Of a stretch of 33,674 nt of DNA, positions 3,231 to 30,754 are shown in pieces. The notes under the pieces were generated by a model. The model was given only the letters and a program-made list of their open reading frames with translations. It made no database searches and was not told where the DNA came from. Position 1 is the first letter of the stretch, and each line of letters opens with the position of its first letter. Origin of the DNA: Methanobacteriota archaeon (GTDB lineage: Archaea; Thermoplasmatota; Poseidoniia; Poseidoniales; Poseidoniaceae); NCBI GenBank assembly GCA_018645535.1, contig JABGWN010000038.1:1-33674 (forward strand), given 5' to 3'. The translations under genes and the position numbers were made by a program.

Positions 3231-4430
3231 ATGTCCAACTGGAAATCTGCCGTAGTCGATGCAGATAGGAACAAGGATTGGAAAGTTCGCCTAAAGGCCT
3301 CTCTTCAGGATGTTCATTGGTCAGAGTCATTGCAATCTATTGTCAACAAGATTTTAGATGATGAACAACTTGATGCGTCTGATGGTTGCATTTTATTCGA
3401 AACCAAAAATCTGAACGAATTGGGTCATCTTGCTAATTTACACAAATTGGCCATGTTTGGAAACAACGCCTACTTCAATTCTAATGTTCACATTAATCAA
3501 ACCAATATATGCGTACTTGCATGCAGATTCTGTGCATTCAGGAGAGGGCCAAAGGCTTCAGATGCTTACGCATTATCAATCGATACATATCTTTCTGAAC
3601 TCGAAAAGTTTTCTTCATTTGTTAACGAAGTCCATTCGGTTGGTGGGCTCCATCCAGAATGGGATGTTGATCACTATTGTTCATTGTTTGAACGAATCAG
3701 GGAAGAACACCCGCATGTCTCGATAAAAGCCCTCACTGCGGTTGAAATAAAGCATCTTTCTCAAGTTTCTAATCTATCCATAAAAGAGGTATTGATTAGA
3801 TTCAAAGATGCTGGATTAACTTCTTTACCAGGTGGTGGAGCAGAGATTCTAGATGATGATGTACGCCAAGTTATCTGTAACGGAAAGGAATCCAGTCAAG
3901 AATATTTAGACATTCATGAAGCAGCTCATGAGATTGGACTCCCTAGCAACTGTACAATGCTCTTTGGAACAATCGAAACTGCAAAACAACGAGTAGAACA
4001 TATGATTCAATTAAGGGATTTAGGCCACAGAACGAACGGTTTCCAATGTTTTGTCCCCTATCCTTTCCTTCCTGACTCTACACGATTACCTATGGCTCAG
4101 TTATCCACTGGACAAGAAATCCTTAGAGTTATTGCAGTATCCCGCATTATGCTCGATAGTATACCACACATCAAGGCATATCGAATGAATATAGGAGATT
4201 CTATGGCCGAACTTGCATTACAATTCGGAGCAGATGATATTGATGGCACCGTTAAGCAAGAATCAATTATGCATCTTGCCGGTTCTAAAACGCCACTGAA
4301 TTATGGGGTCAATCAACTCGCTAAACTCGTCACTCGCTCTGGGAATATACCTATCAAACGAAATACAACATACTCTGAGTTTGAGGAGTTTGTTCCTGTT
4401 AAAGAACCGCGTAGACTGCCTGTTGTATGA
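3231..4430 (+). CDS. Radical-SAM enzyme of the futalosine menaquinone pathway (MqnE aminofutalosine synthase or MqnC; cannot be discriminated by eye)
   Basis: CxxxCxxC cluster motif in the context HINQTNICVLACRFCAFRRGP, about 400 aa, CofH/MqnC/MqnE-like layout. It lies immediately upstream (9 nt) of an MqnA-like gene. The pre-motif context YFNSNVHINQTN leans towards MqnE, but weakly. Confidence 0.7.
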   Translation: MSNWKSAVVDADRNKDWKVRLKASLQDVHWSESLQSIVNKILDDEQLDASDGCILFETKNLNELGHLANLHKLAMFGNNAYFNSNVHINQTNICVLACRFCAFRRGPKASDAYALSIDTYLSELEKFSSFVNEVHSVGGLHPEWDVDHYCSLFERIREEHPHVSIKALTAVEIKHLSQVSNLSIKEVLIRFKDAGLTSLPGGGAEILDDDVRQVICNGKESSQEYLDIHEAAHEIGLPSNCTMLFGTIETAKQRVEHMIQLRDLGHRTNGFQCFVPYPFLPDSTRLPMAQLSTGQEILRVIAVSRIMLDSIPHIKAYRMNIGDSMAELALQFGADDIDGTVKQESIMHLAGSKTPLNYGVNQLAKLVTRSGNIPIKRNTTYSEFEEFVPVKEPRRLPVV

Positions 4431-4439
4431 GGAATTGAA

Positions 4440-5246
4440 ATGAATTTGGGAAGTGAATTGTTGTGGGCCAATACCATAGGCCGAGTAGCCTTCATGAATT
4501 GCGATCCATTATTTCTTGGACTCGACCCTACATTCAATGTCTTACCAGCACCCCCTTCATGGTTAACTGGGCATCTATTGAGAAGAGATTGCGTTCTTGC
4601 ACCAATACCAGCAGCTGATTTTGCGCGTCACCATCAAGAACTCGTCCTTATACCAGAGATTGGAATAAGTTCGAAAGGTGAAGTTGGAAGCGTACTCGTC
4701 TTCGGAAATCGACCTGTAGAGGAAATGAGAGACATCGCAATGCCCAGTGATTCCGCTTCTTCGGTTGCTTTACTCAAATATCTGTTAAAGGTAAGAGGTC
4801 TTGATCCGCGCCCTGTTGAAATGGGCCCAGATCTTGATAGCATGCTCGATAGATGTGATGGAGCTTTACTGATAGGTGACAGAGCACTTGACAGAGCAAA
4901 AACCAATCCTGAACTTGTTCAATTGGACCTAGGACAAGCGTGGCTTGAGCACTCAGGCCATCCGATGGTGTTCGGAGTATTTGCGGCGAGAAAAGATACG
5001 CCTATTGAATTCGTAAAACGAGCACATTCCGCTTTAATTGAGCGGTTAGAGTTATTTGAAAACGATCCTATGACGAGGGAGAAAGTAATTCTAAATGCGC
5101 ATCAACAGTCTGATATGTCGATTGAACGTATGAATCGATACTTTGGTGAAGTCTTTAATCGACTGGATACTGAACATGTTTCAGGTTTACAAGAATATCT
5201 TACATTATGCTGCGGGATGAAGGAAAAGATAGAATTCATGTGGTGA
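4440..5246 (+). CDS. mqnA: Chorismate dehydratase MqnA (futalosine pathway)
   Basis: 268 aa. N-terminal IGRVAFMNCDPLFLGL and C-terminal LLIGDRAL....DLGQAW...SGHPMVFGVFAARKD match the remembered MqnA signature (i.ylN..Pl; lLIGD.AL; DLg.eW...tGlPfVFA.W). Sits next to the radical-SAM mqn gene. Confidence 0.75.
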   Translation: MNLGSELLWANTIGRVAFMNCDPLFLGLDPTFNVLPAPPSWLTGHLLRRDCVLAPIPAADFARHHQELVLIPEIGISSKGEVGSVLVFGNRPVEEMRDIAMPSDSASSVALLKYLLKVRGLDPRPVEMGPDLDSMLDRCDGALLIGDRALDRAKTNPELVQLDLGQAWLEHSGHPMVFGVFAARKDTPIEFVKRAHSALIERLELFENDPMTREKVILNAHQQSDMSIERMNRYFGEVFNRLDTEHVSGLQEYLTLCCGMKEKIEFMW

Positions 5247-7436
5247 TTATTCTTCATACCTATCCAGAACATTTGACATTTCGACATCTTCAACATCAGA
5301 TGATTGCCGTACAGCCCTGCGCTTTCGTACTGCAGGTTTAGCCTCATCTTCGACTAAACGTCGTCGCTTGGCGACCTTAACTGTGGAATCCTCTTCGGTT
5401 GCGCGTGCCCTTCTCTTCCGAGTTACAGGTACCGGAATTTGATCTCGCTCGGCACGTATAGTTCTAGATCGAATGCGAGGAGAGGGATTCTCAGATTTAT
5501 CTTCCTCTGCAATAATAGATGTTTGAATTCCTTCAATCTCACCAAAAGAGGTATCATCTATTTCTTCATCATCATCAAATGTTTGCTCGTCTTCTTCTTC
5601 GTCATCTAAATTAATTGAATATGTATTTTCTTTATTCTTTAATTTAAGTGCAAAAAACCCAAAGATAAGTATGGATGAAACTATCAGGGAAATGAACCAC
5701 CATGAAGTAAATACGGACGCATCCACCAAATTCTCATTGGCACTCTCAACTTCTTCATTCAAACTTAAGGAGATGGTGTCTTCTTGTAAAAACCAAGGTG
5801 AAAATGATTCGGTTTCATATGCTTGGCCGGATACGGATACTGAAATCGGATGTTGTTCGCTAAGGATTGTGATACTTCCATCAACAGCAGTCGGCTGGTA
5901 TAAAATTCGGACTGCATTGCTGCCAATTTCAATGTCTCCCGTCATGTTAAATTTGGTAGAAATTGAATATCTTATGTGTGTTCTATCGTCATCAACTTGT
6001 GTCAATTCCATGCCTGATATGACGCTACAACTCATTGATAAATAATCTAAAGAAATTCCATTAATATCAATTGCATCTAGGATAGATTTTGAATAATTTT
6101 GTTCATGGATATTCTCGCAATATGATTCTGCAAAGAGCAATGCTTCTTCGGTTGATAGTTTTAGATCGGAATCCAGTGAGTAACGTGATAAGTCTCGGAC
6201 AATTGATGAGTCAGATTTGTTTAGCGTGAAGGTTTCTATTACCTCTAATTCAGATTCATTAAGAATCAAATCCATAGTACGCATGTACGTTTCATCTGGC
6301 AACAAATCACAACTGAAACTTCCTCCTGCATCGCAATTAAGGTCCCAAATATCTTCTATGCCATCTCCGTCATCATCATCATCAATAGAATTTGGAATTC
6401 CATCGCTATCAAAATCAGAACCAGATTCACCTACTCCGTTTCTTAGGTGAATTGAACGATACGTTACAACATGTTCGGTTGTAGAACTGAATAATGCATA
6501 TTCAATAATCCCAGGGCTTGATTCCAACAGTTCAAAATCCGAAAACGGATGAAAAATTGCTACTTCTGTAATTTCACTTGAGTCAGATGAATCATATGTT
6601 GAAAGAAATTGGCCGATGGTGGTTCTATGAGCGTATACATGCTGCCCATTTGAAGACCACTTGTAAGAATTGATACCGGGCACGTCTAAGGGTCTGAGTT
6701 CAGAACCTGACAGGGTCCACTTTCGAATTTTATCTCCATCAATACTCACTGTAAACATGGATTCAGTTGGATCAAATGAACAATCATTAACACTATTATC
6801 GAGGATAAGTTCGTGGTGTATATAATCGCCGTTTGAATTCCAAATCATGAGTCTTCCGTTTTCGTCGGCACCCATTATGTACGAACCAGAAGGTGATATG
6901 TCTGCACATTTTACATTGCCTGATAGATTTCCACTGTACTGAGCTTCGGTACTCAAATCTTCCCGATTGAGTTTGATTAATCCCGTTGTAGGATGGTTTG
7001 TGATCAGTGATGCTCCATTATTTGTCCATGAAAGGAGAACAGCATTAGAAGCAGTGGCCTGAGAAGATATTTTTGTATTGAAAGTATCAGTATCAATTAC
7101 GTAGAACGTATCGGATGCTGTACCGCTGTCCCTGATGGTAAGAGCTAATCTCGAACCATCTGGAGAAAGTGCAATCGACAAAATTTCTTGCTCAAATAAT
7201 TTCGATTGAATGGTATCTTGGTTAGTAGGTGTATATTGGATCAAAGTCTTTCCAAATGAAGCGTAGGCTACTGTTCCGTCTTGATTAAGTTCAATAGACA
7301 TAAAACCTTGGTTTTGTATTCCCGAATCATACGTCGATTCAAAAAATAAATTATTTGAATCTGCACTAATCATAGGAGCCATGAACAGTATGGTCAAAGG
7401 GATGATGAGAAACCTCAACATGGATGACTTCGCCAT
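5247..7436 (-). CDS. Secreted, C-terminally membrane-anchored beta-propeller (WD40/PD40-like) protein with a thrombospondin-type-3-like Ca2+-binding repeat and a highly charged cytoplasmic tail
   Basis: N-terminal signal peptide (MAKSSMLRFLIIPLTILFMAPMISADS). Repeated ..SPDGS.., ..SPSGSY.., ..NGDY.. blade-like segments over about 330 aa. Asp-rich DSDGIPNSIDDDDDGDGIEDIWD (about 6345-6425). One TM helix WWFISLIVSSILIFGFFALKL (about 5640-5705). Tail has an acidic block then a basic block (RKRRARATEE..KRRRLVEDEAKPAVRKRRAV). No family recognised beyond these modules. Confidence 0.7.
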   Translation of the reverse strand: MAKSSMLRFLIIPLTILFMAPMISADSNNLFFESTYDSGIQNQGFMSIELNQDGTVAYASFGKTLIQYTPTNQDTIQSKLFEQEILSIALSPDGSRLALTIRDSGTASDTFYVIDTDTFNTKISSQATASNAVLLSWTNNGASLITNHPTTGLIKLNREDLSTEAQYSGNLSGNVKCADISPSGSYIMGADENGRLMIWNSNGDYIHHELILDNSVNDCSFDPTESMFTVSIDGDKIRKWTLSGSELRPLDVPGINSYKWSSNGQHVYAHRTTIGQFLSTYDSSDSSEITEVAIFHPFSDFELLESSPGIIEYALFSSTTEHVVTYRSIHLRNGVGESGSDFDSDGIPNSIDDDDDGDGIEDIWDLNCDAGGSFSCDLLPDETYMRTMDLILNESELEVIETFTLNKSDSSIVRDLSRYSLDSDLKLSTEEALLFAESYCENIHEQNYSKSILDAIDINGISLDYLSMSCSVISGMELTQVDDDRTHIRYSISTKFNMTGDIEIGSNAVRILYQPTAVDGSITILSEQHPISVSVSGQAYETESFSPWFLQEDTISLSLNEEVESANENLVDASVFTSWWFISLIVSSILIFGFFALKLKNKENTYSINLDDEEEDEQTFDDDEEIDDTSFGEIEGIQTSIIAEEDKSENPSPRIRSRTIRAERDQIPVPVTRKRRARATEEDSTVKVAKRRRLVEDEAKPAVRKRRAVRQSSDVEDVEMSNVLDRYEE

Positions 7437-7551: not shown

Positions 7552-8436
7552 ATGGCATCTTTACCGCTTGATGAGAATGGCAACATGATTGTTCGAATTG
7601 GACATTCTCCAGATCCAGATGATGCTTTTATGTTTCATGCGATGACAACGAATGCATTTCCTACACCAGGATATAATTTTGTTCATGAACTACAAGACAT
7701 AGAGACTCTCAACCATAGAGCCATGCGACAGGAGTTGGAAGTCTCTGCGGTTTCAATTCACGCATTTCCTGACATTGCTGAACATTATGCTTTGATGAAC
7801 TGCGGCGCTTCAATGGGGGAAGGCTACGGTCCTATGATTGTTTCAAAACAAGGCTTGAGCCTAGATGAAGCAAAAGAATCAACCATAGCCATTCCTGGAC
7901 TGAAGACCTCTGCTTACATGGGTCTCAAACTCGCATGGGGAGATGTTAATGTCGAAGTCGTACCTTTCGACGAGATTATTCCACGAATCCTTGACGATAC
8001 CTATTCATGTGGCCTTATTATCCACGAAGGACAATTAACGTACGTCGAACATGACCTGAACGTTCTCATTGACTTAGGAGTTTGGTGGAATGAACGAACC
8101 GATGGATGGCCTATGCCTTTGGGTGGTAACGTTGTCCGCAGAGACTTAGGTGACAAAATTATGGAGGACATAACTATGTACACCAAAATGAGCATCGAAC
8201 ATTCAATTAAACATCCAGAAGAAGCTTTAGAATTCGCAAAAGCATGGGGTAGAGGTATCGATGATGAAACAAATCAAAAATTTGTTACCATGTACGTGAA
8301 TGATCGGACCATTGACTACAAACCAGAAGGTAGAGCCTCAATTCGACGATTCCTAAGGGAAGGAAAAGAAATTGGATTAATAGATCCAGAATTCTCTGAA
8401 GAGTCAATGCAATTTATCGGTGCCACTGAAGAATAG
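7552..8436 (+). CDS. mqnD: 1,4-dihydroxy-6-naphthoate synthase MqnD-like (MqnA/MqnD VitK2-biosynthesis family)
   Basis: 294 aa. RIGHSPDPDDAFMFHAM...F.HELQDIETLN....ELEVSAVS and IIHEGQLTY....L..LIDLGVWWNERTDGWPMPLGGNVVRRDLG match the remembered MqnD pattern (SPCPND.f.f; DIe.LN; liHE.r.ty; DLGewW...TglPlPLG). Confidence 0.7.
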   Translation: MASLPLDENGNMIVRIGHSPDPDDAFMFHAMTTNAFPTPGYNFVHELQDIETLNHRAMRQELEVSAVSIHAFPDIAEHYALMNCGASMGEGYGPMIVSKQGLSLDEAKESTIAIPGLKTSAYMGLKLAWGDVNVEVVPFDEIIPRILDDTYSCGLIIHEGQLTYVEHDLNVLIDLGVWWNERTDGWPMPLGGNVVRRDLGDKIMEDITMYTKMSIEHSIKHPEEALEFAKAWGRGIDDETNQKFVTMYVNDRTIDYKPEGRASIRRFLREGKEIGLIDPEFSEESMQFIGATEE

Positions 8437-8447
8437 GGTGTGTTCGC

Positions 8448-8915
8448 ATGGGTGAAAAACCAGAAGTCAGTGAATACGGCTCTGTTGACCCTGCTCCCGC
8501 ATCTGATGAATCTGATATGGAACATCTGAAATCAATATTGTTTGATGATTCAGCACGGATGTTCGAGCGTATGCGAGTGGTTTTCAAATTCCGTAATATT
8601 CGAACCTCCGATTCATGCCTCGCCCTTTGCAAGGCCTTTTCCTCCAAGAGCGCATTACTAAGGCATGAGTTAGCCTATGTTTTGGGTCAGATGCAGATGG
8701 ATGAAGCACTTCCTTCACTTATCGAGCGACTATCAGATGTTGATGAGCATGTAATGGTACGACACGAAGCAGCAGAAGCGCTTGGTGCAATAGGAAATCT
8801 ATCTGCTCAACCTATATTGGAAAGTTTTCTATCAGATCCATTTGTAGAAGTCAGTGAGTCTTGTGAAGTTGCTCTTGACCTATTGGATTGGGTCGCAAAA
8901 AGTTCCACTCCTTGA
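8448..8915 (+). CDS. HEAT-repeat protein resembling one half of eukaryotic deoxyhypusine hydroxylase (DOHH/Lia1), with both His-Glu metal-ligand motifs
   Basis: 155 aa, ATG preceded by agggtg. SALLRHELAYVLGQMQ (His-Glu at 8664-8669) and VMVRHEAAEALGAIG (His-Glu at 8763-8768), plus SDPFVEVSESCEVALDLLDW, closely match remembered human/yeast DOHH blocks (SALLKHELAYCLGQMQ; PMVRHEAGEALGAIG; DPVIEVAETCQLA / VVRESCEVALDM). The N-terminal YGSVDPAP....LF.......FER.R..F.FRN matches the inter-lobe linker and start of the second DOHH lobe (YLSVDPAPP...LFERYRAMFALRN). Confidence 0.65.
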   Translation: MGEKPEVSEYGSVDPAPASDESDMEHLKSILFDDSARMFERMRVVFKFRNIRTSDSCLALCKAFSSKSALLRHELAYVLGQMQMDEALPSLIERLSDVDEHVMVRHEAAEALGAIGNLSAQPILESFLSDPFVEVSESCEVALDLLDWVAKSSTP

Positions 8916-8972: not shown

Positions 8973-9179
8973 ATGCCACACGAACACGTACAATTAGCTC
9001 AAGCCCCTAATGGTGAGATTGGCCCACGATGTCATGATTGTGGATTACGATTGACTTTTGGCTCATCCATGGTTCTTAATGAGCACTACTATTGTTGGGA
9101 TCATTACGTCGTAAAGACAGGTGCCGATTCTGTTACAGAAGTAAGCACTATGGAACAGAAATTTTACATCAAAAAATAA
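8973..9179 (+). CDS. Small (68 aa) putative zinc-binding protein, unknown function
   Basis: Strong ribosome-binding site (ggtgaggag immediately before the ATG). C-x2-C (CHDCG) ... C-x2-H (YYCWDH) spacing is compatible with one zinc knuckle or ribbon. Lies 40 nt upstream of priS on the same strand. No family recognised. Confidence 0.45.
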   Translation: MPHEHVQLAQAPNGEIGPRCHDCGLRLTFGSSMVLNEHYYCWDHYVVKTGADSVTEVSTMEQKFYIKK

Positions 9180-9219: not shown

Positions 9220-10419
9220 ATGGCATCACAAGGATGGGCTCGATTTGCGCATCGCTTTGGCCGTTATTATCAAACATCCCAGTTCTGGCGTCCTCCACGG
9301 ATGACCATGCGGGAATGGATGTTCATCCCGTTTGGTGGCGCACCACCTCTAAGACATCGAGCATTCAGAGGGGAAAATGATCTCCGCCAATTTCTCTCCG
9401 AGAGAGCAATGCATTCTTGTTTCTATTCAACTGCTTACTGGAATAAGCCATATGAAATGAAAATGGATGCAAAGGAATGGCAAGGTGCTGATTTAATTTT
9501 TGATTTAGATGGAGATCACCTGCCTGGTGTCACCGACAGAGATTTCCCCGGAATGCTCGATGTAATACGCGACCAAGCCCATGCTCTTTGGAATGATTTT
9601 TTAGAACCTGAATTTGGCTTCAAAAGAGAATTTTTACAAGTCACGTTTTCTGGACATCGAGGGTTTCACCTCCATTATAGAGATCCTTCGCTCTTTCATT
9701 TGGATTCAGAAGCGAGGAGAGAACTCGTTTCGCACATTCGAGGTGAAGGAGTTGATGTATCTGGAGGTCTTGCTCAATATAATGATGTGAATTCTAAAGG
9801 TTGGTCGAAGAGAATTCGTGGCCAAATCCCTACACTGATCGGGAAATTGACCGATATTGCAACAAATGCCGAAGATTCTAAGAGCACACTCAAGACGTTA
9901 CATCTCGAACTTAAAGAACAACTTCGGAGAGAGGGGAAACCCGGACGTGGAATCGCCTCCATTCAAAAATTAGCAGATTTGTTCGTTCATGAGGAACGAC
10001 TGCAACGAGTGCTTGATGGAAAATTTGCTGCGCTTGGGAAGTTGCAAGGATTATTCCTAGATTTGGTTAAATCCGATGCTTCAATCGTTTTAGGGGCTGC
10101 TGGGGAAACTGATGAAGTTGTGACTATAGATGTCCGCAGACAAATCCGATGGCCAACGTCTCTGCATGGGAAAACAGGAATGCGAGTAACAGAATTCGAG
10201 TTAGAACGACTTGATCCTGATCGTTCTAACCCTTTCGATGCACTGAATGAAGCCTTTGTTTTCGGTATGGATAAAAATCTCAAAGTCGAAATTACCGTAG
10301 AAGACGCAATTGTTCGATTTGGAGACAATACACATGAAGTAAAACAAGGAGATGTCATCGATGTGTCTGAATCATCTGCAACTTTTTTGTGTCTAAAAGG
10401 CTGGGGCTCCCTAGTTTAG
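9220..10419 (+). CDS. priS: DNA primase small (catalytic) subunit PriS
   Basis: 399 aa with archaeo-eukaryotic primase motifs: ADLIFDLDGDH (catalytic DxD), SGHRGFHLHY (motif II), and an N-terminal ..YY....REW.F.PFG....RH.AF....L..FL......FYS.AYW block. Confidence 0.85.
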   Translation: MASQGWARFAHRFGRYYQTSQFWRPPRMTMREWMFIPFGGAPPLRHRAFRGENDLRQFLSERAMHSCFYSTAYWNKPYEMKMDAKEWQGADLIFDLDGDHLPGVTDRDFPGMLDVIRDQAHALWNDFLEPEFGFKREFLQVTFSGHRGFHLHYRDPSLFHLDSEARRELVSHIRGEGVDVSGGLAQYNDVNSKGWSKRIRGQIPTLIGKLTDIATNAEDSKSTLKTLHLELKEQLRREGKPGRGIASIQKLADLFVHEERLQRVLDGKFAALGKLQGLFLDLVKSDASIVLGAAGETDEVVTIDVRRQIRWPTSLHGKTGMRVTEFELERLDPDRSNPFDALNEAFVFGMDKNLKVEITVEDAIVRFGDNTHEVKQGDVIDVSESSATFLCLKGWGSLV

Positions 10420-10508
10420 ATTCATGGTCGAAATCTATAATTTTCCTTGTCTTATTTGTGGGAAGGTTCAAGGGCAGCATCATCTCCAAGACATTTAGAG
10501 GTGAGCCG

Positions 10509-11540
10509 ATGCGCCGGAAGAAAAAGAACAAATCACAAAATGTTCCCGCAACCCCGTTGCCTCCAATGCCTGGAATGCCCTTACCACCACTTGCTGGTCA
10601 ACACCCCATGCCTGGCATGCCATTACCTCCATTACAACCGGCTCCTGGAGACTTGCCCTCGGCTCCTTTGCCAGTGGCTCCACCACTTCCAGCGGTACCA
10701 ACGGTGAATGCTCCAGCCACCCCACCAGCACAAGTCACTCCACCAGCACAAGTCACTCCACCTGCTCCATTGCCACAGGCAGCACCTGCTAAAGATTCGA
10801 ATGAATATGGAGACTTATGGGCCAAACGCTCTGCTAAGCCACTTCCTCAAATCTATGGAGCTATTGACAGACTTGGCTCCGGCGAGGCAGGTTCTCTCCT
10901 TGACCGATACTCCGATCGTTTTGGCCACTCGTTGGACAGGGACATCATCGTTTTGAGGAAAAAAGAACGAGAAGATGCTCTAAATGAAATTCGTTCGGAA
11001 CCTGTTGTAGAATTACTTGACGTCGAAGAACCTGACCGTCTTGAGGAAGTAGAAACTGAACTTCGTTCTCTCAAACCGCAGTATGAAGCCGCCAAAGCTT
11101 CCCAAGATAAAGCGGCTCTCAAAACTCTTGTACCTCAACTTGAATCATTAATGCGTGAGAGAAAAGAACTCAAAGGTATTGTATCAGCTCCTAAACCTAA
11201 GAAAGTTACAGTAGTTGAGGTAAATGAAGAATCCGAAGACTCGGAAGAACCTGAAATGGATGATTCAGATGAACTTTTCACTCAATTCTTTACAATCGTA
11301 AATGATCTTCTTGGAGATGAACTTCCAGAAAAGGCAATTGAATCGTTTATGGCTTCTGATGGATTTGAATTATTCAAAGAAGTTGGGGCCGATCCAGCAG
11401 CCATCGATGATGAACGTCGGGGAGAATTTTTCAAAATTATCGATGAGCAATTGGGTAACATGCCAGATGAATCGATAACAGCATTTGTGGATTCAGGTGA
11501 TTTTGCATTGTACAAGCAAATCTCGGAAATGTACGCGTAA
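10509..11540 (+). CDS. Hypothetical protein with a basic N-terminus, about 95-aa polyproline region, coiled coil, acidic linker and a duplicated C-terminal motif
   Basis: The track ORF starts at GTG 10389 and overlaps priS by 31 nt. The ATG at 10509 is preceded by gaggtga and is the more likely start. No Cys and no TM helix. Contains MPGMPLPPL twice, TPPAQV twice, a heptad-like charged segment (EEVETELRSLKPQYEAAKASQDKAALKTLVPQLESLMRERKELK), and two copies of FF.I..(D/E).LG..(L/M)P(E/D)..I..F..S..F.L(F/Y)K at 11286-11384 and 11427-11522. Confidence 0.6.
   Translation: MRRKKKNKSQNVPATPLPPMPGMPLPPLAGQHPMPGMPLPPLQPAPGDLPSAPLPVAPPLPAVPTVNAPATPPAQVTPPAQVTPPAPLPQAAPAKDSNEYGDLWAKRSAKPLPQIYGAIDRLGSGEAGSLLDRYSDRFGHSLDRDIIVLRKKEREDALNEIRSEPVVELLDVEEPDRLEEVETELRSLKPQYEAAKASQDKAALKTLVPQLESLMRERKELKGIVSAPKPKKVTVVEVNEESEDSEEPEMDDSDELFTQFFTIVNDLLGDELPEKAIESFMASDGFELFKEVGADPAAIDDERRGEFFKIIDEQLGNMPDESITAFVDSGDFALYKQISEMYA
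10722..10766 (+). repeat. Direct tandem repeat, 18-nt unit ccaccagcacaagtcact x2 plus a partial third copy
   Basis: 10722-10739 and 10740-10757 are identical. 10758-10766 (ccacctgct) is a diverged partial copy. In frame this encodes PPAQVT-PPAQVT-PPA inside the proline-rich region. Confidence 0.9.
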
Positions 11541-11553
11541 GTGAAGTGATAAA

Positions 11554-12387
11554 ATGGGATTACTCGATAAGGTCGAAACGAAAGATGAAGTTGTCAAAAA
11601 GGCAAAACCTGTTGCAAAGGCAGCAAAAGCGGTAAAAGCAGCACCAAAGAAAGCTACACAAGTTGCTAAGAAGGCAAAGAAAGAATCGAAAATCAAGGTC
11701 AAGAAGGCTCGTCCAGAAGGCCTTTCTTCTGATTTTGAAATCGCATCAAGTTTGAACCGGGTAATATCCTGGTGGGTTAATTTCACAGTGAATTTCTCAC
11801 TTCTAATCGGCGCTCTGGTCATGTCTGTAGCGACTGGTGGTGCAAGCGGAGGTTTTGCAAACACACTCCTATTCGCAGGTGCAGGTTTGATTTTCATCTT
11901 TAACGGCATTGTATTGCCAATATGGACCGGGCGTAATCTCGGCCAATACACATCATCTACGAGATACATACGTGGCGATGGATCAAAACCACTATTCCTC
12001 CACGGATTGTTTGTCAACAATATTGGCGTATCGTCTTTGATTGGATTCATTATGGTATTCACGCAGGCTGGAAAGTTTGCAGAAGGCACTACACCAATTG
12101 TACTGACATCCATTGGAGCACTCTTGATGATTCTATGGATTGTAAACTGGCAATTCTCACGCAACAGTGATTTGCGCCAAGGCCTATTCGATTTAATCTT
12201 CGGAGCATATCTCGTACGATATATTTCCGAAGGAGGAGAAACTTCTGGTTTCCGTGCCCGTCTTGAAAGTATGAGTCAATTTGGTGAGAAGTATGCTCAG
12301 CGTGTTGAAGACAAGAAGAAGGCAAAATCAGCAGCATCAGAAGAAAAGAATGATGAAGAGAAAACTGATTCTGAATCAGAAGATTGA
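11554..12387 (+). CDS. RDD-family-like membrane protein with a histone-H1-like Lys/Ala/Pro-rich N-terminal tail
   Basis: 277 aa. N-terminal tail VKKAKPVAKAAKAVKAAPKKATQVAKKAKKESKIKVKKARP (about 11590-11715), then 3-4 TM helices with RDD-like landmarks (NRVISWWVNF; GRNLGQYTSSTRYIRGDG; RQGLFDLIFGAYLVR), then a Lys/Glu/Ser-rich C-terminus. The RDD assignment is from memory of the family pattern. Confidence 0.6.
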   Translation: MGLLDKVETKDEVVKKAKPVAKAAKAVKAAPKKATQVAKKAKKESKIKVKKARPEGLSSDFEIASSLNRVISWWVNFTVNFSLLIGALVMSVATGGASGGFANTLLFAGAGLIFIFNGIVLPIWTGRNLGQYTSSTRYIRGDGSKPLFLHGLFVNNIGVSSLIGFIMVFTQAGKFAEGTTPIVLTSIGALLMILWIVNWQFSRNSDLRQGLFDLIFGAYLVRYISEGGETSGFRARLESMSQFGEKYAQRVEDKKKAKSAASEEKNDEEKTDSESED

Positions 12388-27114: not shown

Positions 27115-29178
27115 GTGAACAATCCTCAAAGGCCATCAATCCTACGCACACCTATGGATGAAGTGGGACGAATCGCAATGATACGTGCTGGATTACCTTC
27201 TCAGTTGCCAAAGCATCCGGGATTAGATGCTTCAGTAGACCATGCGCCTATTCGTAAACAAGTTCTTTCTCCTCAAGAAGAAAGGTTAGCCATAGAAAAT
27301 GCCCTTCGATATTTTCCAGAATCCGCACACAGTACACTCGGCCCGGAATTTCTTGAAGAATTACGGACTTATGGTCGCATTTACATGTATCGTTTCCGCC
27401 CAGATTGTGTGATTAGAGCGCTCCCTATTGACCAATATCAAGCCAATTCAATACAAGCAGCGGGTATTATGTTAATGATCGACAATAATCTTGATCCTTT
27501 GATTGCCCAATTCCCTAATGAACTGATTACATATGGTGGGAATGGCGCAGTATTTCAGAACTGGGCTCAATATTTACTGGTCATGAATTACCTTTCACAA
27601 ATGACTGATGAACAAACACTCGTCATCTATTCTGGCCATCCTCTCGGATTATTCCCTTCGAATAAAAGAGCTCCCCGCGTTGTTGTGACGAATGGTATGA
27701 TGATTCCGAATTACTCATCAGTAGACCACTACGAGCGATTAAACGCAATGGGTGTGACTCAATACGGTCAAATGACCGCTGGCTCGTACATGTATATCGG
27801 TCCCCAAGGTATCGTTCACGGTACAACAATTACGTTGATGAATGCGGCAAGAATGAAATTTGGTATTGCCGCAAATGGTAATCTGGGAGGATTATGTTTC
27901 GTTACCTCTGGATTAGGTGGAATGTCAGGGGCTCAAGCCAAGGCAGCAGTTATTGCAGGAGTGTCATGTATCGTAGCAGAATCAAACGCTATCGCCGCAA
28001 GAAAGCGTCATTCACAAGGGTGGGTTGAACAGATCTCAGAAGATGTTGACGAAGCGATCGATTTGATGCTTGAATCTGCAAACCAAAAGGTTGGCACATC
28101 TATTGGCTTCATTGGCAACATTGTCGAATTATGGGAACGCTTGGTTGAACGAGACGTCATGGTGCATTTGGGGAGCGACCAAACATCCCTGCACAATCCC
28201 TACCAGGGGGGATATTATCCTGCTAATTTATCCTTCGAAGAATCACAAGAACTCATGCATACTAGTCCTGATGAATTTAGATCTGCAGTACAATCAACTT
28301 TGCAAAGACATGTACTTGCAATAAATTCCATGTCTGAAAGAGGTATGTTCTTCTGGGATTATGGTAATGCATTCTTACTTGAAGCGGGGCGTGCAAAAGC
28401 AGATATTTTTAACAAACTCGGAGAATACAAATATCCATCTTACGTTGAAGATATCATGGGCCCATTGTGCTTTGACCGTGGATTTGGACCTTTCCGCTGG
28501 GTTTGTTCATCTGGATTAGCGATTGATTTGCAAGTTACAGATCAAATCGCCTCTGAAACGCTTTCAGAATTGTATGATGTAGAAACAGATGAAGATGTCA
28601 AACAACAAATACGGGATAATCTAAAATGGATTAGAGAAGCAGATTCTCATAAGTTAGTCGTTGGATCACAAGCCCGTATTCTCTACGCAGATGAACGCGG
28701 AAGAAATGCAATTGCAACTAGGTTCAACGAAGCAATTGCTGAAGGACGCATATCTGCTCCTGTAATTCTTGGAAGAGATCATCATGATGTTAGTGGAACC
28801 GATTCTCCATACAGGGAAACTGCGAATATCAGAGATGGTTCAAAATGGACAGCAGATATGGCTGTTCAGAATTTCATCGGAGATGCGATTCGAGGAGCTA
28901 CATGGGTTAGTTTACACAACGGCGGCGGCGTAGGTTGGGGCGAAGTCATGAATGGTGGTTTTGGGATGGTCATCGATGGCTCAGAGGACTCTAAAACAAA
29001 ACTTCAATCAATGCTTCATTGGGATGTAAACAATGGTGTTGCTCGCAGAGCATGGGCTCGAAATTCAGGTGCTGTATCTTCAATAAAAGAAGCAATGAAA
29101 ACGAATGCATCTCTCAAAGTTACGTTACCTAACTCTGTGGATAAAAATCTTCTTCAAGATATTTTCAAAGGTGAATAA
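27115..29178 (+). CDS. hutU: Urocanate hydratase, long (about 680 aa, eukaryote-like) form
   Basis: YGGNG.VFQNW.QY, SGHPLG.FP, MIPNYS, GQMTAGS(Y/W)MYIGPQGIVHGT, GLGGMSGAQ and LHNGGGVGWGE blocks are canonical urocanase motifs. At 687 aa it is clearly longer than the roughly 555-aa bacterial HutU as I remember it. Start is GTG 27115 or ATG 27154. Confidence 0.88.
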   Translation: MNNPQRPSILRTPMDEVGRIAMIRAGLPSQLPKHPGLDASVDHAPIRKQVLSPQEERLAIENALRYFPESAHSTLGPEFLEELRTYGRIYMYRFRPDCVIRALPIDQYQANSIQAAGIMLMIDNNLDPLIAQFPNELITYGGNGAVFQNWAQYLLVMNYLSQMTDEQTLVIYSGHPLGLFPSNKRAPRVVVTNGMMIPNYSSVDHYERLNAMGVTQYGQMTAGSYMYIGPQGIVHGTTITLMNAARMKFGIAANGNLGGLCFVTSGLGGMSGAQAKAAVIAGVSCIVAESNAIAARKRHSQGWVEQISEDVDEAIDLMLESANQKVGTSIGFIGNIVELWERLVERDVMVHLGSDQTSLHNPYQGGYYPANLSFEESQELMHTSPDEFRSAVQSTLQRHVLAINSMSERGMFFWDYGNAFLLEAGRAKADIFNKLGEYKYPSYVEDIMGPLCFDRGFGPFRWVCSSGLAIDLQVTDQIASETLSELYDVETDEDVKQQIRDNLKWIREADSHKLVVGSQARILYADERGRNAIATRFNEAIAEGRISAPVILGRDHHDVSGTDSPYRETANIRDGSKWTADMAVQNFIGDAIRGATWVSLHNGGGVGWGEVMNGGFGMVIDGSEDSKTKLQSMLHWDVNNGVARRAWARNSGAVSSIKEAMKTNASLKVTLPNSVDKNLLQDIFKGE

Positions 29179-29179
29179 A

Positions 29180-30754
29180 ATGATTAAACGAACGATTACT
29201 CTTGATGGAACAACTTTGACTTCATCTGAAGTTTTCGAAGTAGCCACAAATTTTTCTCTTGTGAAAATAGCGGAAGAATCAATGATTCGTGTAAGAAGTG
29301 CACGTTCTGTTGTCGATCGTATATTGCAGGAAGATGAGGTTGTCTACGGAATAAATACTGGTTTTGGTTCCTTGGTCAATACCCAAATCAATTCAGCAGA
29401 GCTAGAAACGCTCCAATTAAATTTGGTACGATCCCATGCGACTGGGTTAGGGGATTTGATGTCCGTAGAAGAGGTCCGTGCAATGATGTGTGTACGAATT
29501 AATTCGCTTGTAAAAGGAAATTCAGGATGCCACCCCGACGTAATTAACCAACTCGTAACATTTCTCAATATGGGAATACATCCAGTAGTACCTCGCATTG
29601 GAAGTTTAGGAGCTAGTGGTGATTTAGCACCTCTCTCCCATTTGGCTTTAGGATTGATTGGCGAAGGCTCAGTTTTGTTTAATGATGAGACACGGAATGC
29701 AAAAGATGTACTCATAGAATGCGAATTACTCCCACTGACATTACGTGCTAAAGATGGTCTTTCCTTGATTAATGGAACCAGTCAAATGACAGGATTCCTT
29801 TGTATTGCGCTAGAACAACTCAAGAACCTTCTCACATATTCTGATCTCGTTGCATGTATGTCGATCGATGCAACCGAGTCTACTCTTACCCCAATGGATG
29901 AGAGAGTACATCGAGCACGCCCTCATCCTGGCCAGATATTTGTTTCAAATAGAATACGCACGATTCTATCGGATTCATCAATTCTTACAACACATAAAAA
30001 TTGCAATCGAGTACAAGATCCGTATTCATTTCGTTGCATTCCACAAGTACATGGAGCAGTTTCCGAGACACTGCAACGTTTGAACGATGTAGTTCATACG
30101 GAATTAAATTCTGCAACGGATAATCCACTCATTTTCCCAGACATATCTAATCCCGGACGGCATGAAATAGTTTCACAAGGGAATTTCCATGGGGAGATTT
30201 TAGCATTAACAGCAGATGCAATGTCCTTGTCTTTGTTTGAAATCGCATCCATAAGCGAAAGGAGAATTGACCAGATGCTCGATCCTAATCGCTTGGCAAT
30301 CAAACCTTTTTTGGCAGAAGATGCAGGACTGGAATCAGGATTGATGATTGTCCAGTATTCCGCTGGTGCCTCGCTTGGTGAATTACACGGTCATGCTTCA
30401 CCGCGGACATCATTTTCCACAACAACATCTGCAGGGCAAGAAGATCACGTTAGTATGGGCTCAACTGCATGTTGGAATTTGCTTCAAGCAGTCCGTCGAG
30501 CCTCAGAAGTAGTAGCATGCGAACTCTTTGTAGCCAGGAGAGGTTTACATTTCATACACAATAAGTCATCAAAACAAATTGAAATTTTAGTTCGTTGTAT
30601 TGATACGATTGTTATCGATGATATATCTGATAGAACAACAAGTTCTGAATTAAGGGACATTGCTACGAAATTGATTCAATCGGCGTGGCTCTCTTTAATC
30701 GAGGCTGAGTCCAGCCGCATACCAAAATTAATCCAAGAAGTATCTCTGTTCTAA
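29180..30754 (+). CDS. hutH: Histidine ammonia-lyase
   Basis: MIO-forming motif GSLGASGDLAPLSHLA, NTGFGS, and NPL(I/V)F..... Q(G)NFHG blocks. The ATG at 29180 lies 1 nt after the hutU stop and follows aaaggtga. The track start at 29105 overlaps hutU and is rejected. Confidence 0.9.
   Translation: MIKRTITLDGTTLTSSEVFEVATNFSLVKIAEESMIRVRSARSVVDRILQEDEVVYGINTGFGSLVNTQINSAELETLQLNLVRSHATGLGDLMSVEEVRAMMCVRINSLVKGNSGCHPDVINQLVTFLNMGIHPVVPRIGSLGASGDLAPLSHLALGLIGEGSVLFNDETRNAKDVLIECELLPLTLRAKDGLSLINGTSQMTGFLCIALEQLKNLLTYSDLVACMSIDATESTLTPMDERVHRARPHPGQIFVSNRIRTILSDSSILTTHKNCNRVQDPYSFRCIPQVHGAVSETLQRLNDVVHTELNSATDNPLIFPDISNPGRHEIVSQGNFHGEILALTADAMSLSLFEIASISERRIDQMLDPNRLAIKPFLAEDAGLESGLMIVQYSAGASLGELHGHASPRTSFSTTTSAGQEDHVSMGSTACWNLLQAVRRASEVVACELFVARRGLHFIHNKSSKQIEILVRCIDTIVIDDISDRTTSSELRDIATKLIQSAWLSLIEAESSRIPKLIQEVSLF

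What the first reader, a model, noticed from the sequence alone, without database searches (positions are those of the whole stretch)
8448..8915. Half-length, eukaryote-type deoxyhypusine hydroxylase (DOHH) homologue: candidate for the unassigned archaeal hypusine hydroxylase
The 155-aa ORF aligns block for block with one lobe of eukaryotic DOHH as I remember it. It keeps both His-Glu iron-ligand motifs of a lobe (RHELAYVLGQMQ and MVRHEAAEALGAIG), the terminal DP.VEVSESCEVALD helix, and the inter-lobe linker signature SVDPAP...LF....FER.R..F.FRN at its N-terminus. Eukaryotic DOHH is about 300 aa, has two pseudo-symmetric 4-HEAT lobes, and builds its di-iron site from four His-Glu pairs, two per lobe. 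A single-lobe protein with two His-Glu pairs could rebuild that site as a homodimer and would resemble the pre-duplication ancestor. To my knowledge archaea are generally reported to encode deoxyhypusine synthase but no recognisable DOHH, although hypusine has been detected in some lineages. The gene has its own ATG and Shine-Dalgarno-like site and starts 11 nt after mqnD, so no N-terminal lobe lies upstream and there is no sign of a frameshifted remnant.
Basis: partly seen in the sequence, partly recalled or inferred. Interest (0 to 1): 0.72.

Follow-up and report, generated by a model that had tools for sequence, protein, structure and literature searches.

The report
Half-size deoxyhypusine hydroxylase in marine archaea
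Marine Group II archaea (Poseidoniales) carry a conserved 155-residue gene that matches one of the two lobes of the eukaryotic iron enzyme that completes the hypusine modification of translation factor 5A, an enzyme the literature says archaea lack, so it probably works as a pair of identical subunits.

Summary
ORF 8448-8915 (+) encodes 155 aa that match human deoxyhypusine hydroxylase (DOHH, PDB 4d4z) at E=1e-62. It aligns to both lobes: 41% identity to the N-lobe and 45% to the C-lobe plus linker. Generic HEAT proteins score far lower. The AlphaFold model (pLDDT 93.7) superposes on one DOHH lobe (TM 0.90, 1.4 Å).

Both His-Glu pairs, the substrate-binding Glu and Gly equivalents, and the SVDPAP arm are invariant. 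The gene is single-copy and under strong purifying selection (dN/dS about 0.05). It always follows mqnD and occurs in at least 180 species genomes of Poseidoniales, in both families.

A published MGIIb MAG table lists this gene together with aIF5A and two deoxyhypusine synthase genes. The paper's text never mentions it.

In its core the protein is neither N-type nor C-type. It is closer to each eukaryotic lobe (43-46%) than the lobes are to each other (37.5%).

Best reading (about 0.58): a homodimeric di-iron DOHH that hydroxylates deoxyhypusinated aIF5A.

The family was seen only in Poseidoniales, not in the Crenarchaeota where hypusine was detected. Dimerisation, iron binding and activity are untested.

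The parts
8448..8915 (+). CDS of the single-lobe DOHH homologue (155 aa; four HEAT-like helical hairpins plus an N-terminal arm)
   Evidence: ORF. Human DOHH 4d4z at E=9.9e-63. AF2 model pLDDT 93.7 with 8 helices. Foldseek top hit 4d4z: TM 0.90, rmsd 1.4 Å. dN/dS median 0.05.
8481..8498 (+). SVDPAP motif (residues 12-17) in the N-terminal arm, homologous to the inter-lobe linker of eukaryotic DOHH
   Evidence: Aligns to human 'SVDPAP' in the linker. S12, D14, P15, A16 and P17 are invariant in the 54-sequence alignment that includes eukaryote-type proteins. D14-P17 are ≥99% identical in 80 species. pLDDT is about 86 in the model.
8661..8696 (+). First His-Glu motif, RHELAYVLGQMQ (H73, E74, G80). 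It is equivalent to human H56/E57/G63 and H207/E208/G214.
   Evidence: Alignment to both human lobes. Invariant in 80 species. Residue roles in human DOHH from PMC9117371.
8754..8795 (+). Second His-Glu motif, MVRHEAAEALGAIG (H106, E107). It is equivalent to human H89/E90 and H240/E241.
   Evidence: residue roles from PMC9117371.
8835..8879 (+). C-terminal helix DPFVEVSESCEVALD, a DOHH-type lobe terminus
   Evidence: Aligned to human DPERVVRESCEVALD and DPVIEVAETCQLAV. E137, S138, C139, V141, A142 and D144 are ≥99% conserved.
8437..8440 (+). GGTG Shine-Dalgarno-like element in the 11-nt gap after the mqnD stop codon
   Evidence: Sequence. The same TAGGTG context occurs in close orthologues.
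7552..8436 (+). mqnD (1,4-dihydroxy-6-naphthoate synthase), the invariably adjacent and probably co-transcribed upstream gene
   Evidence: PF02621 at E=1.8e-63. TTHA1568/MqnD 2czl at E=1e-48. Adjacent in 79/80 loci and kept adjacent after rearrangement in MGIIb.

Best explanation
The gene encodes a single-lobe member of the deoxyhypusine hydroxylase (DOHH) family that is specific to Poseidoniales (Marine Group II archaea). Each subunit supplies one set of two His and one Glu iron ligands (H73, H106, E107). It also supplies the Glu and Gly residues that hold the deoxyhypusine side chain in the human enzyme (E74, G80).

Two identical subunits are proposed to associate head-to-head, as the N- and C-lobes of the eukaryotic enzyme do. 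This would rebuild a symmetric oxygen-activating di-iron centre. The enzyme would then hydroxylate the deoxyhypusine residue that DHS places on the conserved lysine of aIF5A (loop SKSKPGKHGSAKAR), giving hypusine in these aerobic surface-ocean archaea.

Shown here: family membership, fold, conservation of ligand and substrate residues, purifying selection, single copy, and presence of aIF5A and DHS in the lineage.

Inferred: homodimerisation, iron content, O2 chemistry and the aIF5A substrate.
For: - Sequence: E=9.9e-63 to human DOHH, with both lobes matched over their full length. Identity is 41% to the N-lobe and 45% to the C-lobe.
- Fold: AF2 model at pLDDT 93.7. The best PDB match is 4d4z (TM 0.90, rmsd 1.4 Å over 147 columns); the next matches are designed alphaRep proteins at TM about 0.69.
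- Catalytic and substrate residues: H73, E74, G80, H106 and E107 are ≥99% identical in 80 species. They correspond to human H56/E57/G63/H89/E90 and H207/E208/G214/H240/E241. In the human enzyme six of these anchor the di-iron centre, and E57, E90, E208, E241 and the glycines bind the deoxyhypusine side chain (PMC9117371). All 13 columns that are ≥90% conserved in both eukaryotic lobes are kept.
- The gene is functional: intact in 80/80 species, dN/dS median 0.052. The exact protein is indexed in 220 blocks of the assembly collection.
- One lobe only: no second copy within ±10 kb. The loci inspected show one hit each.
- Pathway context: Poseidoniaceae and Thalassarchaeaceae aIF5A carry the canonical hypusination loop. 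The MGIIb MAG SIMO Bin 19-2 has this gene (KO K06072, next to mqnD), aIF5A, two DHS genes (one next to SAM decarboxylase) and low but non-zero transcript coverage (PMC9723583 supplementary file 4).
- The symmetric, neither-N-nor-C character of the core fits a subunit that must play both lobe roles.
Against: - No dimer model, metal analysis or activity assay could be done.
- A single lobe carries a 2-His-1-carboxylate set that could in principle bind one iron as a monomer.
- The only conserved neighbour is mqnD, a menaquinone gene, not a translation or polyamine gene. aIF5A and DHS are not linked to it.
- Early amino-acid analyses found mainly deoxyhypusine, not hypusine, in Euryarchaeota including Thermoplasmatales, the nearest tested relatives. 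No data exist for Poseidoniales.
- Transcript coverage in the one published data set is low.
Confidence: 0.58

Rival explanations
1. The fold and metal site are the same, but the substrate is different. The protein would be an oxygenase or accessory factor tied to futalosine-pathway menaquinone biosynthesis or quinone modification, expressed from the mqnD operon.
For: - mqnD is immediately upstream in 79/80 MGIIa loci, with an 11-nt gap in the window.
- In MGIIb loci L085/L086 the neighbourhood is rearranged, with priS and the small zinc-ORF upstream on the opposite strand and mqnA and mqnC downstream and convergent. The mqnD-half-DOHH pair stays intact with a 0-nt gap. In SIMO Bin 19-2 the two ORFs overlap.
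Against: - The residues that bind the deoxyhypusine side chain in human DOHH (E57/E208 and G63/G214 equivalents) are invariant. Identity of 41-45% to the human lobes argues for an unchanged substrate.
- As far as I know, the futalosine pathway has no step that needs such a hydroxylase (own knowledge).
- A gene without its own promoter, 0-11 nt behind mqnD, would stay linked to it whatever its function.
Confidence: 0.14
2. It does not form a homodimeric di-iron site. It works as a monomer with a mononuclear 2-His-1-carboxylate iron, or as a heterodimer with another, more divergent HEAT-repeat partner encoded elsewhere in the genome.
For: One lobe carries exactly two His and one Glu ligand. Only ±10 kb around the gene was searched for a partner. 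Dimerisation was not modelled.
Against: - No second DOHH-like gene appeared among the loci of the GTDB scan.
- Among the 150 best representatives at 50% clustering, the only half-size ones are two Poseidoniales-type clusters.
- The mosaic N/C character of the core fits a subunit that fills both positions.
- In the human enzyme the two lobes together form the site (PMC8153317 and PMC9117371).
Confidence: 0.13
3. It is a generic PBS-lyase-type HEAT-repeat scaffold (CpcE/NblB/MTH187-like) with no catalytic role, or an inert fragment of a transferred eukaryotic gene.
For: Pfam recognises only HEAT_2, HEAT_PBS and HEAT. NCBI names it 'HEAT repeat domain-containing protein' or 'PBS lyase'.
Against: - NblB and CpcE models score 24 and 19 bits against cut-offs of 300 and 330. 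The PDB CpcE hit is E=1.5e-6 against 1e-62 for DOHH.
- The HE pairs are invariant and dN/dS is about 0.05 across at least 80 species.
- Synteny is conserved in both Poseidoniales families.
- Transcripts were detected.
Confidence: 0.03
4. Origin rival, about history rather than function. The gene is the C-terminal half (linker plus C-lobe) of a eukaryotic two-lobe DOHH. It was captured by an ancestor of Poseidoniales and then re-shaped by homodimer constraints. It is not a survivor of the pre-duplication form.
For: - The N-terminal arm is homologous to the eukaryotic inter-lobe linker, including the invariant SVDPAP.
- Affinity to C-lobes is slightly higher: 45.6% against 42.7% identity, and 89.6 against 81.1 bits, with C higher in 52 of 75 proteins.
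- Among prokaryotes I saw the family only in one archaeal order, whereas every named two-lobe relative I checked is eukaryotic.
- 41-45% identity is high for an ancient vertical relationship.
Against: - With the linker excluded, a lobe-type log-odds classifier gives C-lobes +66±18 (minimum +17.5) and N-lobes -63±18 (maximum -23.8). The Poseidoniales halves score -19 to +5. Of the discriminating columns, 13 favour N and 9 favour C.
- The half is closer to N-lobes (42.7%) than C-lobes are to N-lobes (37.5%).
- From mean distances it joins the N-C internal branch about midway, 0.11-0.12 from either crown (my arithmetic on the distances).
- It is not nested in any C-lobe subgroup with support.
Confidence: 0.45

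Closest known systems
Eukaryotic deoxyhypusine hydroxylase (human DOHH, PDB 4d4z/4d50; yeast Lia1)
   Same: HEAT-repeat lobe fold (TM 0.90, rmsd 1.4 Å). 41-45% identity to each lobe. Both His-Glu motifs of a lobe, the GQ motif, the RHE..EALGAIG motif, the C-terminal ESCEVALD helix and the SVDPAP linker motif are all present.
   Different: It has half the length: four hairpins in one lobe instead of eight in two pseudo-symmetric lobes. The di-iron site therefore cannot be built by one chain. It is archaeal and sits behind mqnD. Its core is neither N-type nor C-type. Activity is untested.
PBS-lyase-type HEAT repeat proteins (CpcE/CpcF, NblB; Pfam HEAT_PBS PF03130) and the alphaRep proteins designed from them
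   Same: The same repeat type. Pfam HEAT_PBS and HEAT_2 match. Structural matches have TM about 0.6-0.7.
   Different: They have no His-Glu metal motifs. Scores are far below family cut-offs (24 against 300 bits for NblB, 19 against 330 for CpcE). Sequence identity is 22-31% against 45% to DOHH.
MTH187 (PDB 1te4), a small archaeal HEAT-like repeat protein of 131 residues
   Same: It is a small, single-domain archaeal HEAT_PBS-type protein of similar size.
   Different: The similarity is only marginal (E=0.005). No DOHH-type motifs were detected at the sequence level. Its function is unknown.
Bacterial multicomponent di-iron monooxygenases (methane and toluene monooxygenases)
   Same: According to PMC9117371, the DOHH active site resembles their non-haem di-iron O2-activating centres.
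   Different: The protein fold is unrelated: a four-helix bundle against a HEAT solenoid. This is an analogy of chemistry only.

Membership tests
Deoxyhypusine hydroxylase (DOHH/Lia1) family | Sequence similarity to DOHH lobes clearly above generic HEAT-repeat similarity | tested here: met
   E=9.9e-63 to 4d4z, with 116 and 96 bits per lobe. Each alphaRep repeat segment scores about 15-26 bits. Identity is 45% and 41%.
Deoxyhypusine hydroxylase (DOHH/Lia1) family | Strictly conserved His-Glu motifs, two per lobe, that supply the iron ligands | tested here: met
   H73-E74 and H106-E107 align to H56-E57/H89-E90 and H207-E208/H240-E241. They are ≥99% identical in 80 species.
Deoxyhypusine hydroxylase (DOHH/Lia1) family | Residues implicated in binding the deoxyhypusine side chain (E57/E208, E90/E241 and the conserved Gly of LGQ) | tested here: met
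   E74, E107 and G80 are invariant. Residue roles are taken from PMC9117371.
Deoxyhypusine hydroxylase (DOHH/Lia1) family | Eight HEAT hairpins arranged as a symmetric dyad of two four-repeat lobes in one polypeptide | tested here: not met
   The protein has 155 aa, eight helices (four hairpins) and one lobe. There is no adjacent second lobe in the window or in 80 loci.
Deoxyhypusine hydroxylase (DOHH/Lia1) family | Lobe fold superposable on a solved DOHH structure | tested here: met
   Foldseek: 4d4z_A/B at TMq 0.90-0.91, rmsd 1.4 Å, 147-149 columns, from a model with pLDDT 93.7.
Deoxyhypusine hydroxylase (DOHH/Lia1) family | Two Fe per active enzyme and O2 activation through a peroxo-diiron(III) species | not testable with these tools
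   This needs the purified protein.
Deoxyhypusine hydroxylase (DOHH/Lia1) family | Hydroxylation of deoxyhypusine on IF5A | not testable with these tools
   A biochemical assay or metaproteomics is required.
Deoxyhypusine hydroxylase (DOHH/Lia1) family | Substrate pathway present in the same organisms (IF5A with the target lysine loop; deoxyhypusine synthase) | tested here: met
   Poseidoniaceae and Thalassarchaeaceae aIF5A carry SKSKPGKHGSAKAR. SIMO Bin 19-2 lists aIF5A (K03263), two DHS genes (K00809) and this gene (K06072). DHS and aIF5A were not found in this window itself.
Phycobilisome lyase / NblB HEAT_PBS proteins | Match to the CpcE, CpcF or NblB equivalog models at their cut-offs | tested here: not met
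   NblB scores 23.8 bits against a cut-off of 300. CpcE scores 19.1 against 330.

The most novel reading that the evidence does not exclude
The Poseidoniales protein is a living representative, or close sister, of the single-lobe homodimeric ancestor from which the two-lobe eukaryotic DOHH arose by tandem duplication and fusion. The hypusine hydroxylation step would then have existed, or been exchanged, between marine archaea and the eukaryotic stem before the last eukaryotic common ancestor. Fully hypusinated aIF5A would exist today in one of the most abundant archaeal groups of the surface ocean.
Probability: 0.25. Interest if true: 0.85.

Novelty: new variant of a known kind. Interest (0 to 1): 0.66.

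Why it matters
Reviews and primary papers up to at least 2021 state that no DOHH orthologue exists in Archaea. This gene is a clear exception. It is conserved across an entire, globally abundant order.

If active, it would be three things:
- the first archaeal DOHH;
- a natural, perfectly symmetric 'half enzyme' for studying how a HEAT solenoid builds a di-iron oxygenase site;
- a direct window on how the two-lobe eukaryotic enzyme arose.

The prediction can be tested without cultivation. Express the 155-aa protein with Poseidoniales aIF5A and DHS, or look for +87 Da against +71 Da on the aIF5A loop peptide in ocean metaproteomes.

It does not solve how Crenarchaeota, including anaerobes, make hypusine.

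Tried and rejected
AF2 coordinates are not exposed, so no docking or metal-geometry check was possible.
- tblastn for DHS and aIF5A in the window and in 80 Poseidoniales loci found nothing. They are not linked to this gene. DHS is also not next to aIF5A in the Poseidoniales loci.
- I tried to extend the window with the look-up of encoding contigs on end genes. Three look-ups failed on start-codon differences. One returned a contig that ends just upstream of the window region.
- The neighbour-joining tree of 75 N-lobes, 75 C-lobes and 10 halves recovers the halves as a clade in 121 of 200 bootstraps. Their attachment is not resolved (N 28/200, C 25/200), so I rely on identities and the log-odds classifier. 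A first attempt with Biopython NJ timed out.
- Strict 'signature columns' gave only three (two C-like, one N-like), too few to decide.
- Literature searches for DOHH or hypusine with Poseidoniales, Marine Group II, MGII, Asgard or Thermoplasmatota, and for K06072, found nothing relevant. Wolff 2007, Kim 2006 and Park 2006 are not held.
- NCBIfam has no model that separates MqnA from MqnD here. PDB matches settled it.
- Contamination or a chimeric eukaryotic fragment is rejected. Synteny is identical in 80 independent MAGs and the region's GC (0.43) is similar to the rest of the window (0.39-0.45).
- The genome-contig scan used peptides of this protein only, so it finds close relatives. Distant single-lobe homologues in other archaea could have been missed. 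The representative search lists only the top 150, where two-lobe proteins outrank any distant half-size protein.
Full report
**1. What is in the sequence**

The window is a 33.7-kb archaeal fragment at about 42% GC with no tRNA genes. It carries these genes:
- futalosine-pathway genes: an MqnE/MqnC-type radical-SAM enzyme at 3231-4430, MqnA at 4440-5246 and MqnD at 7552-8436;
- DNA primase PriS at 9220-10419, MetRS, a PAN-type proteasome ATPase and Tsr3;
- a histidine-utilisation set.

It starts 11 nt after the mqnD stop codon. The gap begins with GGTG. No other stretch of the window resembles either lobe of human DOHH.

**2. It is a DOHH lobe, not a generic HEAT protein**

- Pfam has no DOHH-specific model and reports only HEAT_2, HEAT_PBS and HEAT.
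- Against all PDB sequences the top hit is human deoxyhypusine hydroxylase (4d4z/4d50) at E=9.9e-63. The query aligns twice: to the N-lobe (96 bits) and to linker plus C-lobe (116 bits). Designed alphaRep proteins reach 15-26 bits per repeat segment, and CpcE reaches E=1.5e-6.
- NCBIfam NblB and CpcE models score 24 and 19 bits against cut-offs of 300 and 330.
- An AlphaFold2 model built on a 54-sequence alignment has mean pLDDT 93.7 and eight helices. Foldseek against the PDB puts 4d4z first (TM 0.90, rmsd 1.4 Å, 147-149 columns, 45% identity). The next hits are alphaRep-type proteins at TM about 0.69.
- The 147-149 aligned columns cover nearly the whole 155-residue model, so most of the N-terminal arm (residues 1-23) must be included. 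I infer that the 'linker' packs on its own lobe as it does in the human enzyme.

**3. Residue mapping**

The alignments contain no gaps. With the 5-residue offset of the PDB chain, the mapping is:

| Query | Human N-lobe | Human C-lobe |
|---|---|---|
| H73 | H56 | H207 |
| E74 | E57 | E208 |
| G80 | G63 | G214 |
| H106 | H89 | H240 |
| E107 | E90 | E241 |

PMC9117371 states that H56, H89, E90, H207, H240 and E241 anchor the di-iron centre. It also states that E57, E90, E208, E241 and two conserved glycines bind the deoxyhypusine side chain. It prints the N-lobe glycine as G65, whereas by symmetry with G214 I place it at G63.

One lobe therefore offers two His and one Glu ligand plus half of the substrate pocket. 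By itself it cannot make a di-iron site.

**4. A conserved family of Poseidoniales**

- A search of 5.8 billion proteins returned more than 2000 hits. The best ~100 are 155-162 aa long. NCBI names them 'HEAT repeat domain-containing protein' from Candidatus Poseidoniaceae, Euryarchaeota or Methanobacteriota archaea. JGI names them 'deoxyhypusine monooxygenase'.
- A scan of one genome per GTDB species found 180 genomes with a close relative. The 80 best are all Poseidoniales MAGs, apart from three contigs filed in bacterial bins that show the same archaeal synteny.
- A second search seeded with the more distant representative P0217 recovered a 159-aa subfamily. It includes a protein named from Candidatus Thalassarchaeaceae, so both families (MGIIa and MGIIb) have the gene.
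- At 50% clustering the whole family collapses into two representatives. The other 148 of the best 150 representatives are two-lobe proteins of about 290-340 aa, partial, extended or fused two-lobe forms (200-800 aa), or giant HEAT arrays that lack the DOHH RHE..EALG motif and carry at most a few stray His-Glu pairs. The two-lobe proteins that carry a name are eukaryotic.
- The gene is intact in 80/80 species. 54 of 155 positions are ≥99% identical, including D14-P17, H73, E74, G80, Q81 and H106-A111. Pairwise dN/dS has a median of 0.052 over 69 pairs with 0.05<dS<1.5.
- There is no second DOHH-like segment within ±10 kb in any locus.

**5. Genomic context**

- In MGIIa the order is mqnE/C - mqnA - (a β-propeller surface protein in half of the loci) - mqnD - half-DOHH - a 68-aa Cys/His ORF - priS. 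This holds in 79-80 of 80 loci.
- In MGIIb loci L085/L086 the region is rearranged. priS and the small ORF lie upstream on the other strand. mqnA and mqnC lie downstream and convergent. mqnD and the half-DOHH stay together with no gap. Both rearrangement breakpoints flank the pair, so the two genes form a unit that is very probably co-transcribed.
- This is the only contextual hint for function and it points to menaquinone rather than translation. I treat it as a rival explanation. However, a gene without its own promoter, 0-11 nt behind mqnD, would remain linked whatever it does.

**6. Is the substrate pathway present?**

- Neither DHS nor aIF5A lies in the window or the 80 loci.
- A degenerate DNA pattern for the hypusination loop retrieved 120 aIF5A loci from metagenomes. 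Sixteen form a marine group of 126-128 aa with the loop SKSKPGKHGSAKAR. Exact look-up shows their clusters carry NCBI names from Candidatus Poseidoniaceae, Thalassarchaeaceae and Poseidoniales.
- One aIF5A cluster member (P0474) and one half-DOHH (P0333) both list a longest contig of 1,598,520 bp. They are probably on the same near-complete genome.
- The supplementary gene table of PMC9723583, for the MGIIb MAG SIMO Bin 19-2, lists gene 936. It is a 480-nt HEAT protein with KO K06072 'DOHH', directly beside mqnD (gene 937). The same table lists aIF5A (gene 1092, K03263) and two DHS genes: gene 886 next to S-adenosylmethionine decarboxylase, and gene 1182. All show low but non-zero transcript coverage.
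- The main text of that paper never mentions hypusine, DOHH or HEAT.

**7. Ancestor or truncated copy?**

I split 75 two-lobe representatives into N- and C-lobes and aligned them with 10 Poseidoniales halves over 120 core columns, linker excluded.

Mean identities:

| Comparison | Identity |
|---|---|
| half to N-lobes | 42.7% |
| half to C-lobes | 45.6% |
| N-lobes to C-lobes | 37.5% (38.2% within the same protein) |

- The half is closer to each lobe than the lobes are to each other.
- A log-odds classifier of lobe type gives C-lobes +66±18 (minimum +17.5), N-lobes -63±18 (maximum -23.8) and the halves -19 to +5. Among the discriminating columns, 13 favour N and 9 favour C.
- From the mean distances, the halves join the N-C internal branch about 0.11-0.12 from either crown (my arithmetic). 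NJ bootstraps do not resolve the attachment.
- On the other side, the N-terminal arm is homologous to the eukaryotic inter-lobe linker. Raw scores lean slightly to the C-lobe, which is higher in 52 of 75 proteins.

Both histories remain open. One is a pre-duplication-like single-lobe form. The other is an old capture of the linker plus C-lobe half, later symmetrised by homodimer selection. I lean slightly away from a recent truncation and cannot decide further with these tools.

**8. Mechanism proposed**

Two identical subunits associate as the N- and C-lobes do in eukaryotic DOHH. This gives four His and two Glu around two irons and two copies of the Glu/Gly substrate-binding set. [quoted passage not shown]

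The steps shown and the steps inferred are listed under the best explanation above.

Poseidoniales are described as surface-ocean (photo)heterotrophs (abstracts listed), so an O2-dependent enzyme is plausible there.

**9. Relation to what is known**

- PMC5178350 (2016), PMC7432094 (2020) and PMC8153317 (2021) all state that no DOHH orthologue or homologue has been found in Archaea.
- Hypusine was detected in Crenarchaeota, and mainly deoxyhypusine in Euryarchaeota including Thermoplasmatales.
- The Poseidoniales gene is therefore an undiscussed exception. It does not explain crenarchaeal hypusine.
- Automated pipelines (JGI, KEGG) already assign the DOHH label. I found no paper that comments on it.
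- It fails one defining feature of the DOHH family, the two-lobe eight-repeat chain, and meets the others that could be tested. I file it as a new single-lobe variant of a known enzyme family.

**10. Verdict**

- Confidence that this is a single-lobe DOHH-family protein under selection is about 0.97.
- Confidence that it acts as a homodimeric di-iron hydroxylase of aIF5A-deoxyhypusine is about 0.58.
- Interest is 0.66. It is a clear exception to a repeated statement in the field and is directly testable by expression or metaproteomics. It is already auto-annotated, confined to one uncultured order, and does not resolve the classical archaeal hypusine puzzle.

Noticed in passing
window 8973-9179 (+); L085 8855-9049 (-): A small conserved ORF of 68 aa with CxxC...CWDH (zinc-ribbon-like; weak Pfam LIM hit, E=0.028) sits directly upstream of priS. 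It is conserved in 79/80 Poseidoniales loci. A 64-aa ORF occupies the same position upstream of priS in the rearranged MGIIb loci; its homology to the 68-aa ORF was not checked. It may be a primase-associated zinc protein. It has no family assignment in Pfam or NCBIfam.
   Followed up: partly
L085/L086 9143-10480 compared with window 7552-8915: The mqnD-half-DOHH pair survives rearrangement breakpoints on both sides between MGIIa and MGIIb. The gap is 0 nt in MGIIb and 11 nt here, and the ORFs overlap in SIMO Bin 19-2. This suggests an operon whose functional logic (menaquinone plus hypusine?) is unexplained.
   Followed up: partly
PMC9723583 supplementary file 4, SIMO Bin 19-2 genes 886 and 1182: This MGIIb MAG carries two deoxyhypusine synthase paralogues (both K00809). 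One is adjacent to S-adenosylmethionine decarboxylase. The other has its best hit to Ignicoccus. Why there are two is unknown; one could be a homospermidine-synthase-like enzyme.
   Followed up: no
window 5247-7436 (-): A 729-aa WD40/β-propeller protein with an N-terminal signal-like segment, a C-terminal membrane anchor and an acidic/basic tail is inserted between mqnA and mqnD. It is present in only 40 of 80 loci, so it is a variable insertion in an otherwise fixed gene order.
   Followed up: no
L014, L016, L047: Three contigs with full Poseidoniales synteny are deposited in MAGs labelled Rhodobiaceae, Salipiger bermudensis and Yoonia sp. They are almost certainly binning contamination in public bacterial MAGs.
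   Followed up: partly
P0264 (159 aa): This second half-size representative has an aberrant internal stretch (RALRVEKSCWTTVHRCPLSGF) where the family has the conserved FKLRN...CLALC helices. It is probably a frameshifted or low-quality assembly (cluster of 2), not a real variant.
   Followed up: no
window 10389-11540 (+) and 11554-12387 (+): Two conserved ORFs downstream of priS have no Pfam or NCBIfam match. The first has a long Pro/Ala-rich low-complexity N-terminal half. They are conserved in 67 and 63 of 80 loci.
   Followed up: no
window 27115-29178 and 29105-30754 (+): The mechanically called urocanase and histidine ammonia-lyase ORFs overlap by 74 nt. No gene with exactly the 549-aa HutH product is on record, so the real HutH start is probably further downstream.
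   Followed up: no
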